A stretch of DNA of 64,000 nucleotides from a virus (lineage: Duplodnaviria > Caudoviricetes): positions 1-64,000 of IMG/VR virus record IMGVR_UViG_3300031992_000055. One strand, given 5' to 3'. Of the stretch, positions 46,370 to 47,982 are shown in pieces. A program made the translations under genes and the position numbers. Under the pieces are notes generated by a model. It was not told where the DNA came from. It did not search any database and saw only the letters and a program-made list of their open reading frames with translations. The stretch's first letter is position 1, and every line of letters begins with the position of its first letter.

Positions 46370-46405
46370 AAAAAAGCTCTCTCTTGTTTCACAACAAAAG
46401 AGAGT
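46370..46405 (-). terminator. GUGA-loop intrinsic terminator downstream of the tRNA cluster
   Basis: CTCTCTTTTGTT-GTGA-AACAAGAGAGAG-CTTTTTT on minus strand. Confidence 0.65.
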
Positions 46406-46590
46406 AGATTTCAAAATAAATTAACTCAAAATTTTATCTAAGCTCTCTTTTCACAAAGAAAACATAGATAAGGTCTTATAAATCCGAAGTTGCATGAAAA
46501 CAAAACAAATCTAACGAACTAAAAATCTTAAGGATTTATTAAGAACCTCTACCTATTAAAATAAGCAATTAAAATAATAATAATGGCTTG

Positions 46591-47167
46591 TGGGCCTTGT
46601 AGGGTTTGAACCTACGACCTTCAGATTCCTGCCACACTATGTTACCATAGCCAAATTTAGGAAAGAAATACTACTTACCCTCCATAATAGTAAGCTGGAT
46701 TAGTTTCAGTAATCTTCTTCATCATTTGTTGTGGTCTGGACTGTCTCTTTACCATATTGAAATTCTTGCAAGTAATCTATTTTAACGTAGAAGGGAATTT
46801 GCAAACCCTCATCTCTGTACGTTACAGTGTTTTTTCTTTATTCAAACTACTACGCTTATTATTAGACAATTTCAACTTAGGTATTCACCCGTTCAGTCTC
46901 TACACGTTTGTAAGGAATATCATCCAGGTATAGGGCAATTTCAACCTACAGAGTATTCAATATATTATCTGATTCCTTATTTTCGCTCGGTATTGTCCTT
47001 ACACATTATTGATTAGTGTTGTTATAAACATCATAACGGTACCTGTAATGATGTAACAACATAAAAAGGATTTCCACCGAATTTGGGTGATTCTACATAG
47101 GGATTTCTCGCCTATGCACACAATTTTACTATGAGTCTGCTGCTCTAACCTACTGAGCTAAAGGCCC
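46591..47167 (-). tRNA. tRNA-Ile2(CAU), intron-split (exons 47131-47167 and 46591-46627)
   Basis: Spliced GGGCCTTTAGCTCAGTAGGTTAGAGCAGCAGACTCAT|AATCTGAAGGTCGTAGGTTCAAACCCTACAAGGCCCA folds as a cloverleaf and resembles bacterial lysidine tRNA-Ile; Met not excluded. Confidence 0.88.
46628..47130 (-). ncRNA. Group I intron (IC3-like, 503 nt, no ORF) in the anticodon loop
   Basis: Inserted after CAU, ends in G; AAATTCGGTGGAA, AATACCGAGC, GTAGAGACTG, AGACAGTCC; P3 CACCC/GGGTG. Confidence 0.9.
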
Positions 47168-47276
47168 TTAATATGTATATAAAGTTACTAATTCTTTAAA
47201 TGGCGGAGTCTACCAATCTCACGACTAATAGACTCCTAGCTATCAAATCCAAATCAAATACACAATAAACATTTAG

Positions 47277-47350
47277 TACTCCTTACAGGACTTGAACCTG
47301 TGGCCTACTGCTTAGAAGGCAGTTGCTCTATCCAACTGAGCTAAAGGAGC
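47277..47350 (-). tRNA. tRNA-Arg(UCU)
   Basis: GCTCCTT/AAGGAGT acceptor; ACTGC-CTTCTAA-GCAGT anticodon arm; GGTTCAAGTCC. Confidence 0.93.
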
Positions 47351-47427
47351 AAGAGAGGGGGAGCTGGCAAAGGTACACAACATTTTATGAAAATCCAAAA
47401 CAACTATGAGTACTCCCCCTCCTATTA

Positions 47428-47556
47428 TTAGAAGAGGTCTAAAAGACCTCTATCTCCATCTCCACAGCATGTTGCTATTATGCATAATGCTAATATAAGT
47501 GCAAAGAAAGTGTATAATATTATTTCTTCCAAATTATTTTTTAATTTCTTTCTCAT
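47428..47556 (-). CDS. Small membrane protein
   Basis: MRKKLKNNLEEIILYTFFALILALCIIATCC. Confidence 0.5.
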   Translation of the reverse strand: MRKKLKNNLEEIILYTFFALILALCIIATCCGDGDRGLLDLF

Positions 47557-47668
47557 CCTTATTATTTTTGTAATATTTCTCATAACTTTCAAAATTAACT
47601 TTTCCATGTGAATAAGTACATCTTGCAATAAGATTACAGTTACTTTTATCTAGATATTTATACATAGG

Positions 47669-47872
47669 TCAGTCTTTTTTGATGTTTGTCCATGCACTTA
47701 TATGTAAAGCACTTTTATTTTCTTGTTCTCTCAGATATCTATTTTGAATCTCCTCCATTACTGGATTCAACTCAGTGATGTACTGTACAAAGACTCTGCC
47801 TTGTTTTGTTAGCTCACTTTGAATGTCTTTAATAGCACATTCTTGGGCTTGTTTTTGTTCGATTGTTAGCAT
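47669..47872 (-). CDS. Hypothetical early protein
   Basis: ORF with A-rich initiation region. Confidence 0.65.
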   Translation of the reverse strand: MLTIEQKQAQECAIKDIQSELTKQGRVFVQYITELNPVMEEIQNRYLREQENKSALHISAWTNIKKD

Positions 47873-47914
47873 AATTATAAATGTTTAAGGTTAGGTTAAG
47901 TCAGGGATTAATGT

Positions 47915-47950
47915 ACAAAAAGGGAAGGACAGTAAGTACTGTCACTTCCC
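47915..47950 (-). terminator. Terminator hairpin after tRNA-Leu
   Basis: GGGAAGTGACAGTA-CT-TACTGTCCTTCCC-TTTTT. Confidence 0.65.
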
Positions 47951-47982
47951 ATCATTGTACTAACCCCTTAAACAATGATAAC

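What the first reader, a model, noticed from the sequence alone, without database searches (positions are those of the whole stretch)
46370..47980. Candidate new system: antisense small RNAs against translation-start regions, interleaved with tRNAs
Seen: every spacer next to a tRNA carries, on the transcribed minus strand, a U-rich tract that is the reverse complement of a Bacteroidota-style initiation region, often including anti-AUG. Plus-strand text: aattaaaataataataATGgc (46567-46587), ATGaaaacaaaacaaa (46494), aaatccaaatca (47245-47256), acaacattttATG and aaatccaaaacaactATG (47377-47408), aaccccttaaacaATG (47962-47977). Tracts sit in stem-closed loops (e.g. gagggggag/ctccccctc 47355-47421) or before terminator/GUGA-capped hairpins (~46390, ~46451, ~47220). 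Several complement the phage's own early-gene leaders: 12/12 nt to 49516-49527 (ORF 49513), 9/9 incl. AUG to 50636-50644 (ORF 50638), 14 nt with one gap to 50021-50035 (ORF 50010). Inference: tRNA processing releases sRNAs that block initiation on SD-less mRNAs (early-gene or host shut-off). Caveat: the matches are short and low-complexity.
Basis: partly seen in the sequence, partly recalled or inferred. Interest (0 to 1): 0.8.

Follow-up and report, generated by a model that had tools for sequence, protein, structure and literature searches.

The report
tRNA-trailer anti-leader box in crAss-phage
Most of the proposed antisense RNAs between this gut phage's tRNA genes are ordinary promoters, terminators and small genes, but one 18-base element behind a tRNA is conserved in related phages and mirrors a start-region sequence of these phages and Bacteroidota bacteria, so it may be a small RNA that masks translation starts.

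Summary
The quoted strings, hairpins and short matches are all present. As a system of several antisense sRNAs the finding does not hold.

- Four of the five U-rich tracts pair with the phage's 130 start regions no better than dinucleotide shuffles (P 0.16-0.43).
- They are better explained as a host-type promoter for tRNA-Arg lying in a hairpin loop, terminator tails, GUGA-capped hairpins and tRNA trailers.
- The Leu-Arg "spacer" holds three conserved small ORFs.
- The Arg-to-next-gene stretch holds a tRNA(CAU) split by a 503-nt intron.

One tract survives. The box at 47977-47959(-) lies between tRNA-Leu and a strong terminator.

- It beats shuffles (P about 0.01).
- It occupies the same place in 39 of 40 syntenic crAss-like loci, behind tRNAs of six identities.
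- It is the reverse complement of a 5'-UTR box (AACCCTTTAA) found 3-14 nt before the ATG of phage early genes and of Bacteroidota host genes.

My best reading (0.45) is that this box is the single-stranded head of a tRNA-trailer RNA that masks such leaders, in cis and/or trans. No discrete RNA has been shown and covariation is uninformative.

The scan noted similar tRNA-trailer anti-leader candidates on other DNA (e1-5894016, e1-3434443).

The parts
47983..48068 (-). tRNA-Leu(UAA), with encoded CCA; upstream neighbour of the anti-leader box
   Evidence: ARAGORN; Rfam tRNA 57.5 bits
47959..47977 (-). Anti-leader box CATTGTTTAAGGGGTTAGT. Family consensus is TT(G/A)TTTAA(A/G)GGGTT.
   Evidence: Same place in 39/40 loci that hold the downstream small gene; 25 distinct sequences. 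Duplex energy to start regions beats shuffles, P about 0.01. Core is unpaired in most folded trailers.
47917..47950 (-). Intrinsic terminator: hairpin 47950-47922 plus T run 47921-47917
   Evidence: Terminator scan. Trailer fold -26.4 kcal/mol, z -4.8. Relatives have hairpins of different sequence at the same place, z -2.1 to -7.7 (-4.5 to -7.7 in nine of ten).
47882..47894 (-). Sense-type box CTAACCTTAAACA in the leader of the next ORF, 9 nt before its ATG; it can pair with the anti-leader box in cis
   Evidence: Read from sequence. The MFE fold of 47985-47860 pairs the two boxes, -36.6 kcal/mol. The exact complement lies in the same leader in L008, L064, L074, L084 and L174.
47669..47872 (-). 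Conserved small gene, 67 aa here and 52-84 aa in relatives; function unknown
   Evidence: HMM hits in 40 of 132 syntenic loci; alignment A3; no PHROG family
47534..47665 (-). Second small ORF, 43 aa, with a ..LIARC..Y.KYY motif; fused to the first ORF in L074 and L084
47428..47628 (-). Third small ORF, a hydrophobic peptide with ..TCCG..GLL..; start codon uncertain. It covers the apparent hairpin at 47440-47465.
   Evidence: ORF list; similar peptides in L002, L003 and L004
47355..47421 (-). Long hairpin (GAGGGGGAG / CTCCCCCTC). Its loop carries a Bacteroidota-type promoter: -33 TTTG at 47399-47396 and -7 TACCTTTG at 47375-47368.
   Evidence: Pattern match (10 in window vs 4.0 expected). TACCTTTG is conserved before tRNA-Arg in L002 and L003; TAAATTTG in L073, L075, L098 and L102. 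An enclosing inverted repeat of different sequence is present in L002 and L003.
47276..47350 (-). tRNA-Arg(UCU)
47205..47236 (-). GUGA-capped 14-bp hairpin with no T run, between tRNA-Arg and tRNA(CAU)
   Evidence: The same loop core with a covarying outer stem follows tRNA-Leu in L002. GUGA hairpins lie 3-10 nt before tRNAs in relatives.
46590..47167 (-). tRNA(CAU) split by a 503-nt intron (47130-46628) inserted after anticodon base U36. Exons are 47167-47131 and 46627-46590.
   Evidence: ARAGORN with introns allowed. Intron-less allele in L002; 450-nt homologue in L003. Same intron family in tRNA-Arg(UCU) of L074, with the guide changed from GUG to GGA. Not matched by Rfam RF00028.
46442..46463 (-). 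GUGA-capped 9-bp hairpin
46370..46404 (-). Intrinsic terminator that ends the tRNA unit: 12-bp GUGA hairpin plus T run
   Evidence: Counterparts with compensatory stem changes lie before the same gene in L003 and L004.
46352..46364 (-). TTGACAATTCACG, a -35-like block after the terminator and about 40-55 nt before the Myb-like ORF (46310-45993)
   Evidence: Conserved in L003 and L004. crAss-like middle promoters resemble sigma-70 promoters (bioRxiv 10.1101/2020.03.07.982082).
50021..50035 (-).
   Evidence: The homologous leader in L003 keeps the box. RNA contigs of two runs end at 50030 and 50029 inside it.
39519..39527 (-). Sense box AACCTTTAA in the leader of ORF 39505; best predicted partner of the anti-leader box
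   Evidence: The homologous gene carries AACCCTTTAA in L070, L072 and L083.

Best explanation
The stretch is the tRNA cluster at the junction between the early genes and the replication genes of a sheep-gut crAss-like phage. Read on the minus strand, its order is:
1. tRNA-Leu
2. an 18-nt anti-leader box plus an intrinsic terminator
3. three small genes
4. a host-type promoter set in a hairpin loop
5. tRNA-Arg
6. a GUGA hairpin
7. tRNA(CAU) with a 503-nt self-splicing-type intron
8. a GUGA hairpin and a terminator
9. the promoter of the replication genes

The U-rich tracts are the T-rich parts of these ordinary signals. They are not a set of antisense RNAs.

The exception is the box behind tRNA-Leu. 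I infer that tRNA 3' processing and the terminator define a trailer RNA of about 65-100 nt. Its unpaired 5' box (UUGUUUAAGGGGUUAG) would pair with the 5'-UTR box (A)CUAACC(C)UUUAAACA, which lies 3-14 nt before AUG. That box occurs in the next gene's own leader (cis), in other phage early leaders, and in Bacteroidota host mRNAs (trans). Pairing would occlude initiation or create a processing site.

Shown: position, conservation, complementarity beyond chance, and the terminator. Inferred: release of the RNA, pairing in vivo, and any effect on translation.
For: Layout.

Four tracts at chance.

Promoter reading of the hairpin loop: TTTG-N20-TACCTTTG ends 17 nt before tRNA-Arg, and the -7 box is conserved in relatives. 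Host-RNAP promoters before tRNA genes are reported for crAss-like phages (10.1101/2020.03.07.982082).

Small ORFs are coding: conserved, and fused in some relatives.

The anti-leader box:
- The module tRNA / box / hairpin + T run / small gene occurs in 39 of 40 loci, with 25 distinct sequences. It follows tRNAs of six identities while its flanks diverge.
- The exact 10-mer occurs once per 87-122 kb genome, at that place.
- Energy to start regions is P about 0.01 and top-5 P<0.01. Partners include ORFs 39505, 46310 and 47872.
- In genome G003, six sense copies cluster in the 5.5 kb of early genes, against one inverted copy in the module.
- The core is single-stranded ahead of a strong terminator.
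- There is no conserved ATG or ORF on the opposite strand.
- The sense box is a 5'-UTR element of Bacteroidota genes: 41 of 80 genomic 17-mer hits have an ATG within 20 nt plus an ORF of at least 50 aa. These include a ROK-kinase-like gene in about 30 Bacteroides species and rubredoxin in four Prevotellaceae/Bacteroidales genomes.

The region is transcribed: an RNA contig spans 47378-49011 at depth 42.6, against 0-7 in silent parts.
Against: - No discrete trailer RNA has been seen. Only assembled contigs were available, and one contig runs straight through the terminator.
- The 10-nt core is invariant on both sides, so it gives no covariation. Flank covariation is inconsistent: present between W and L074, absent in L084. 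This pattern also fits a protein-recognised sequence.
- A sister clade (L071, L073, L075, L077, L098, L102) keeps the anti-leader box, yet the exact 10-mer of its complement occurs nowhere else in the genomes searched (G001, G002, G004), near-matches with one mismatch do not cluster (G002, G004), and its early leaders are SD-like.
- RNA contigs end at 50029/50030 inside the sense box. If that is a true 5' end, only the AU-rich half of the box is in the mRNA.
- In W itself the box is partly folded into a local hairpin.
Confidence: 0.45

Rival explanations
1. One reading: every spacer beside a tRNA yields a processed antisense sRNA whose U-rich tract blocks initiation on phage early (or host) mRNAs.
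For: All quoted matches exist. 8- and 9-mers are mildly enriched over dinucleotide shuffles. GUGA hairpins are a real, clustered family.
Against: Duplex energies of four of five tracts equal their shuffles. The 12/12 match is expected by chance against all start regions (P=0.58). The loop tract is a promoter. The Leu-Arg interval is coding. Tracts at 46480-46589 have no counterpart in relatives.
Confidence: 0.05
2. The box is read as a sequence by a protein, not by pairing. Candidates are an RNA-binding factor acting on termination, 3' processing or stability of the tRNA transcript, or a DNA-binding regulator of the downstream small gene. On this view its resemblance to inverted leaders is secondary.
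For: The 10-nt core is strictly invariant without covariation. The box persists in a clade whose genomes lack the exact complement elsewhere. It is always tied to the same downstream small gene.
Against: The match to the leader consensus extends over 17-18 nt, not only the 10-nt core. The sense box also occurs in host genes, which a phage regulator would not explain. The inverted orientation is fixed in all 39 modules.
Confidence: 0.27
3. The sense box is a promoter or start-site element at the DNA level. The inverted copy would then be a leftward promoter that fires antisense across the tRNA and the early genes.
For: Sense boxes follow a strong hairpin by 7-25 nt and lie within 14 nt of the ATG. 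RNA contigs from two runs of one sample end at 50029/50030 inside the box, with a terminator at 50202-50160 upstream and little cover between.
Against: In Bacteroides the box lies downstream of an ordinary TTTG-containing promoter region, so there it is 5' UTR. On the opposite strand of the modules there is no -33 TTTG or other conserved upstream element, only the variable hairpin. Contig ends at low depth are imprecise.
Confidence: 0.12
4. The anti-leader box acts only in cis. In read-through transcripts it folds back on the leader of the next gene, enclosing the terminator in a long helix. This gates translation of the small gene or makes a double-strand-specific cleavage site. It has no trans targets.
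For: A complement of the box lies in or near the next gene's leader in W, L002, L008, L064, L074, L084 and L174. The MFE folds of W and L064 form the long-range helix. The contig running through the terminator is compatible with read-through.
Against: No cis complement exists in L003, L006 or the whole L071-L139 clade, which still keep the box. This is a sub-case of the best explanation rather than a true alternative.
Confidence: 0.11

Closest known systems
3'ETS(leuZ) of the E. coli glyW-cysT-leuZ operon, a regulatory RNA released from a tRNA 3' external transcribed spacer (my own knowledge; the RNA is discussed in bioRxiv 10.1101/2021.04.25.441314, listed)
   Same: It lies directly behind a tRNA-Leu. 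tRNA processing would set its 5' end and the operon terminator its 3' end. It has a short single-stranded pairing region.
   Different: 3'ETS(leuZ) sponges Hfq-dependent sRNAs. Here the complement is an mRNA 5'-UTR box, the element is phage-borne, and Bacteroidota are not known to have Hfq (my own knowledge). No sequence relation exists.
   Same: A phage-encoded small RNA cut out of a longer transcript by a tRNA-processing enzyme. It pairs with the ribosome-binding region of a gene downstream in the same transcript.
   Different: No Rfam family matched the module even at E up to 10. c4 presents two loops within a tRNA-like fold, whereas here an unpaired box precedes a terminator. c4 controls one operon, whereas here the box matches several phage and host leaders.
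Stable RNAs C and D of the phage T4 tRNA gene cluster (my own knowledge)
   Same: Small non-tRNA RNAs interleaved with phage tRNA genes and matured from the same precursors.
   Different: They are tRNA-sized structured RNAs of unknown function with no reported anti-leader box. No sequence relation was tested.
Ordinary transcription punctuation: Bacteroidota sigma-A promoters (TTTG / TAnnTTTG), intrinsic terminators with GNRA tetraloops, and host-RNAP promoters before tRNA genes in crAss-like phages (10.1101/2020.03.07.982082)
   Same: This accounts for the tracts at 47365-47411, 46370-46404 and 47917-47950, and for the GUGA hairpins.
   Different: It does not account for the conserved 18-nt box at 47959-47977, nor for the inverted repeat that encloses the tRNA-Arg promoter.
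Group I introns in bacterial tRNA anticodon loops (Azoarcus tRNA-Ile(CAU) type; reviewed in PMC3984707, listed)
   Same: Insertion after anticodon base 36. The 5' exon ends in U opposite a G of an internal guide, and the intron ends in G. The guide changes with the anticodon. An intron-less allele exists.
   Different: It is twice the size of the Azoarcus intron and is not recognised by Rfam RF00028. Similarity of the core to Azoarcus rests on my recollection of that sequence, not on a tool.

Membership tests
Trans- or cis-acting antisense sRNA derived from a tRNA 3' trailer | A discrete, stable RNA with a processed 5' end at the tRNA and a terminator 3' end | not testable with these tools
   Only assembled contigs of RNA runs were available. 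They cannot show ends, strand or small RNAs.
Trans- or cis-acting antisense sRNA derived from a tRNA 3' trailer | Complementarity to target start regions beyond chance | tested here: met
   Met only for 47982-47951 (P about 0.01; top-5 P<0.01). Not met for the other four tracts (P 0.16-0.43).
Trans- or cis-acting antisense sRNA derived from a tRNA 3' trailer | Conserved pairing region next to a structurally conserved terminator | tested here: met
   39/40 loci, 25 distinct sequences. Hairpins differ in sequence, z -2.1 to -7.7 (-4.5 to -7.7 in nine of ten).
Trans- or cis-acting antisense sRNA derived from a tRNA 3' trailer | Covariation between pairing region and target | tested here: inconclusive
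   The core is invariant on both sides. Flanks covary in W vs L074 but not in L084. A clade lacks the exact complement elsewhere in its genomes.
Intrinsic (Rho-independent) terminator | G+C-containing hairpin directly followed by a T run, at the end of a transcription unit | tested here: met
   46404-46377 and 47950-47922 (3 found vs 0.9 expected, the third inside the intron). Compensatory stems in L003 and L004.
Bacteroidota primary-sigma promoter | -33 TTTG and -7 TAnnTTTG separated by 19-21 nt, upstream of a gene | tested here: met
   47399-47368(-), spacing 20, ending 17 nt before tRNA-Arg. The -7 box is conserved in relatives. Promoter activity was not tested.
Group I intron (tRNA anticodon-loop type) | Insertion in the anticodon loop; 5' exon ends in U paired to G of an internal guide; intron ends in G; intron-less alleles exist | tested here: met
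   ctcaU|a...gg|aa. Guide GUG for CAU, and GGA for UCU in L074. L002 allele lacks the intron.
Group I intron (tRNA anticodon-loop type) | Match to the curated covariance model (Rfam RF00028) | tested here: not met
   No hit at E up to 10 in the window stretch, nor at E up to 0.5 in L003, L074 or L102. The other intron of the window (21793-22036) does match.
P1/P7 c4 antisense RNA (Rfam C4) | Match to the family model | tested here: not met
   No such hit in 46300-48100 at E up to 10.

The most novel reading that the evidence does not exclude
A clade of rumen and gut crAss-like phages encodes, as the 3' trailer of whichever tRNA ends the early region, a small RNA whose conserved head is the exact antisense of a G-free 5'-UTR box. 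That box is shared by Bacteroidota host genes (a sugar-kinase-like gene, rubredoxin, enolase) and the phage's own early genes. The RNA would work as a general anti-leader that shuts down translation of box-bearing host and early phage mRNAs in bacteria that do not rely on Shine-Dalgarno pairing.
Probability: 0.25. Interest if true: 0.75.

Novelty: new variant of a known kind. Interest (0 to 1): 0.5.

Why it matters
Translation initiation in Bacteroidota largely bypasses Shine-Dalgarno pairing, and what marks a good start site there is still poorly defined. A recurrent, exact 17-nt 5'-UTR box in host and phage genes would give that question a concrete handle if a phage RNA is built to mask it. 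It would also point to a way for crAss-like phages to time early-gene or host shut-off. These phages are among the most abundant gut viruses and their regulation is almost unknown.

The negative result also matters. Short AU-rich complementarities around phage tRNA genes arise by chance, and the T-rich Bacteroidota promoter and terminator signals imitate 'anti-leader' text.

Tried and rejected
- Default ARAGORN and Rfam miss the split tRNA.
- Rfam at E up to 10 gave only meaningless weak hits in the spacers (PyrG/PyrR leaders, miRNA models).
- A single-protein search of viral contigs with the helicase found nothing.
- An exact scan with the exon-intron junction found nothing.
- A 15-mer from the 47205-47236 hairpin gave 48 hits, mostly chance, with a few similar hairpins in unrelated contigs.
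- The 17-mer of the box gave 6 viral hits, about the chance number. Four of them are leaders read on the other strand.
- MAFFT plus RNAalifold on 14 modules gave no consensus structure, because the hairpins are not alignable by sequence.
- PHROGs: no family for the small ORFs or the early ORFs.
- tblastn of the small protein against GenBank phages: no match.
- The crAss001 helicase neighbourhood is not syntenic.
- RNA-run contigs cannot show small RNAs, strand or ends, and parts without cover are not evidence.
- Back-joints 47126-47128 to 46626-46632 in RNA run X3 could be intron circles or assembly-graph artefacts. This was not resolved.
- No host-encoded counterpart (tRNA / box / terminator) was found among the exact 17-mer genomic hits.
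- Papers on crAss001 held nothing on phage promoters or sRNAs.
- Reading the box region as a sigma-70 promoter (TTATCA-16-TACAAT) is not above chance: 9 sites vs 7.4 expected.
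Full report
**What is there**

The window is part of a 93.7-kb IMG/VR virus record. Its SNF2-type helicase (44528-45724) is 41-45% identical to those of crAss001, cr85_1 and IAS virus, so the phage is crAss-like. 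The DNA occurs in sheep-gut metagenomes and metatranscriptomes.

All genes around the finding run on the minus strand. In that direction the stretch reads as follows:

1. tRNA-Leu(UAA), 48068-47983
2. an 18-nt box, 47977-47959
3. a strong hairpin with a T run, 47950-47917
4. three small ORFs, 47872-47428
5. a long hairpin, 47421-47355
6. tRNA-Arg(UCU), 47350-47276
7. a GUGA-capped hairpin, 47236-47205
8. tRNA(CAU), 47167-46590, interrupted by a 503-nt intron
9. a 280-nt spacer with a second GUGA hairpin (46463-46442) and a terminator (46404-46370)
10. a Myb-like ORF (46310) and the helicase

**The observation**

The hairpins are real. The genome has only five GUGA-capped hairpins with stems of 9 bp or more. 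All are intergenic and lie between 46.3 and 53.1 kb.

The statistics do not support a system.
- Against the start regions of 130 crude gene calls, a 12-mer complement is expected by chance (P=0.58).
- Only 8- and 9-mers are mildly enriched. Shared low-complexity A/T/C text can produce that.
- With RNAduplex energies and 100 dinucleotide shuffles each, four tracts are indistinguishable from shuffles. These are the tRNA(CAU) trailer, the 46480-46525 tract, the tRNA-Arg trailer and the hairpin loop (P 0.16-0.43).
- The tRNA-Leu trailer is clearly better than its shuffles: best -23.3 vs -18.3 +/- 2.0 kcal/mol, with the top-five mean beyond all shuffles.

**What the four ordinary tracts are**

*Hairpin loop.* The loop of the 47421-47355 hairpin holds TTTG, 20 nt, then TACCTTTG. 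These are the Bacteroidota -33 and -7 elements, and they end 17 nt before tRNA-Arg.
- TACCTTTG is kept before tRNA-Arg(UCU) in L002 and L003.
- TAAATTTG is kept there in four more distant relatives.
- Drobysheva et al. report that host RNA polymerase transcribes middle and late genes of crAss-like phages. In 12 of 14 phages they found its promoter motif before a tRNA gene (10.1101/2020.03.07.982082).

*The remaining U-rich text.* It lies in tails of terminators (46404-46370; 47950-47917) or in trailers without counterparts in relatives.

*The Leu-Arg "spacer".* It is coding. ORF 47872-47669 has homologues in 40 of 132 syntenic loci. The second ORF is fused to it in L074 and L084. The third is a conserved hydrophobic peptide.

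*GUGA hairpins.* In relatives they lie 3-10 nt before tRNA genes, sometimes just after a -7 box. They look like transcript punctuation: 5' leader or 3' end-protecting hairpins, or weak terminators. They do not look like sRNA bodies.

*Plus-strand ATGs.* They open only 6-34 codon frames and are not conserved.

**The element that survives**

I used the helicase to collect syntenic loci. This showed that the box behind tRNA-Leu belongs to a conserved module.
- Its consensus is TT(G/A)TTTAA(A/G)GGGTT, usually followed by AG.
- A strong hairpin of variable sequence follows 5-10 nt later, with a T run. Fold z-scores are -2.1 to -7.7, and -4.5 or below in nine of ten relatives.
- Next comes the same small gene.
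- 39 of 40 loci with that gene have the module, in 25 distinct sequences.
- In most representatives a tRNA ends 2-33 nt before the box. Its identity varies: Leu-UAA, Met-CAU, Arg-CCU, Arg-UCU with an intron, Val-CAC, Ile-UAU/AAU.
- The flanks are diverged while the box is not.
- In three complete or near-complete genomes of 87-122 kb, the exact 10-mer occurs only at this place.

**What the box mirrors**

The reverse complement, (ACT)AACC(C)TTTAA(ACAA), lies 3-14 nt before the ATG of several genes.
- In this phage: ORF 50010, ORF 47872 (the gene right after the module) and ORF 39505.
- In relatives of the same clade. In genome G003, six such copies cluster in the 5.5 kb of early genes, against a single inverted copy in the module.

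The same 17-mer was then sought in one genome per prokaryote species and gave 84 hits, about 60 of them in Bacteroidota. In 41 of 80 hits an ATG and an ORF of at least 50 codons follow within 20 nt. Examples are a ROK-kinase-like gene in about 30 Bacteroides species, rubredoxin in four Prevotellaceae/Bacteroidales genomes, and enolase.

So the sense box is a host-type 5'-UTR element that the phage also uses. The box behind the tRNA is its faithful inverse. On the opposite strand of the modules there is no conserved ATG, ORF or upstream promoter element. The inverse copy is therefore not an expression signal for a leftward gene.

**Mechanism**

The module has the anatomy of a terminator-ended small RNA with an unpaired 5' pairing region. 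Its 5' end would be made by tRNA 3' maturation. I therefore favour an RNA that pairs with box-bearing leaders.
- In W, L064 and others, the complement in the next gene's leader allows a long-range helix enclosing the terminator. This would be a cis effect on read-through transcripts.
- An RNA contig that spans 47378-49011 is compatible with such read-through transcripts.
- Trans effects on early phage or host leaders are equally possible.

Several points weaken this reading.
- No discrete RNA has been shown.
- The core never varies, so there is no covariation, and the flanks are inconsistent.
- A sister clade with SD-like early leaders keeps the box although the exact complement occurs nowhere else in its genomes.
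- RNA contigs end inside the sense box at 50029/50030, downstream of a terminator at 50202-50160. If that is a true start, it favours a DNA-level role for the sense box.

A protein-recognised element is the main rival.

**The intron (noted separately by the scan)**

ARAGORN with introns allowed finds tRNA(CAU) with a 503-nt insert after U36. Supporting observations:
- L002 carries the uninterrupted allele, and L003 a 450-nt homologue.
- L074 has the same intron family in tRNA-Arg(UCU). There the guide following the 5' splice site reads GGA instead of GUG, matching UCU instead of CAU.
- The intron body is by far the most abundant RNA of the region. An exact-match contig has depth 981 and 326 in the two RNA runs, against about 17 in DNA.
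- Rfam's group I model does not recognise it.

**Verdict**

The multi-sRNA system is not supported. One conserved tRNA-trailer anti-leader box is real, apparently undescribed (no Rfam family; nothing in the papers searched), and worth an experiment.

Noticed in passing
window 46590-47167 (-); L002:5289-5363; L003:4418-4942; L074:326-905; L102:4066-4556: The tRNA(CAU) intron has an intron-less allele (L002). Homologues sit at the same anticodon-loop position in tRNA-Met (L003) and tRNA-Arg(UCU) (L074), and the internal guide changes GUG to GGA with the anticodon. ARAGORN also calls a 402-nt insert in a tRNA-Ser(AGA) of L102; that call is weak, with only a 32-nt similarity. Rfam RF00028 misses all of them.
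   Followed up: partly
window 46638-47105: In two sheep-gut RNA runs the intron body has summed depth of about 2,500-15,800, against 3-190 for neighbouring genes. Many contigs replace its peripheral loops by other sequence, so a large family of related introns is expressed in that community. Back-joints 47126-47128 to 46626-46632 appear in RNA run X3; these may be circles or assembly artefacts.
   Followed up: partly
L189-L267 (GTDB genomes), e.g. L190:1446-1462, L203:96-112: The exact 17-mer ACTAACCCTTTAAACAA is the 5' UTR, 3-13 nt before the ATG, of a ROK-kinase-like gene in about 30 Bacteroides species, of rubredoxin in four Prevotellaceae/Bacteroidales genomes, and of enolase and others. 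It is a recurrent G-free leader box in Bacteroidota.
   Followed up: partly
L272:335-1857 (Bacteroides cellulosilyticus 16S rRNA), position 563-572: The 16S rRNA contains GUUUAAAGGG, the core of the anti-leader box, so the leader box is complementary to this rRNA segment. Duplex energy is -14.2 against -11.0 +/- 1.6 for shuffled boxes (P about 0.04). This may be coincidence.
   Followed up: partly
window 47355-47421 (-); L002 about 5940-5995; L003 about 5540-5590: The tRNA-Arg promoter is enclosed by an inverted repeat in the window (GAGGGGGAG/CTCCCCCTC). In L002 and L003 the enclosing repeat has a different sequence (TGGCATGAAA/TTTATGCCA). The hairpin could form only in read-through RNA. Its purpose is unknown.
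   Followed up: no
window 47250-47268 (-); L002:6075-6095; L003:5690-5715: The tRNA-Arg(UCU) trailers share a block, TTATTGT(G)TATTTGATT, followed by a GUGA hairpin. L002, L003 and L004 also share CCAATCAATCAATTA further on. The function of both blocks is unknown.
   Followed up: no
window 50045-50130 (-): A structured element of about 90 nt (outer stem TTCCCACAG/CTGTGGGAA, inner GUGA loop) lies between the terminator of ORF 50228 and the sense box of ORF 50010. The 231-nt region folds with z -4.75. Part of it is conserved in L003 before the homologous gene.
   Followed up: no
window 48479-49085 and 50205-50739: These are the best-covered parts of the early region in RNA run X4 (contig depths 157 and 189). 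The first includes the intergenic stretch 48765-49104, which another note of the scan flagged as a structured RNA.
   Followed up: no
window 10-20 kb and 55-57 kb; L073:1-4700: Many genes of this Bacteroidota-type phage, and the early genes of the sister clade, have GGAGG-like Shine-Dalgarno sequences 7-12 nt before the ATG, alongside G-free leaders. Two kinds of start region coexist.
   Followed up: no
window 46352-46364 (-); L003 about 5880; L004 about 935: TTGACAATTCACG-like block directly after the terminator and before the Myb-like gene. It is a candidate -35 part of the promoter of the replication-gene operon.
   Followed up: no
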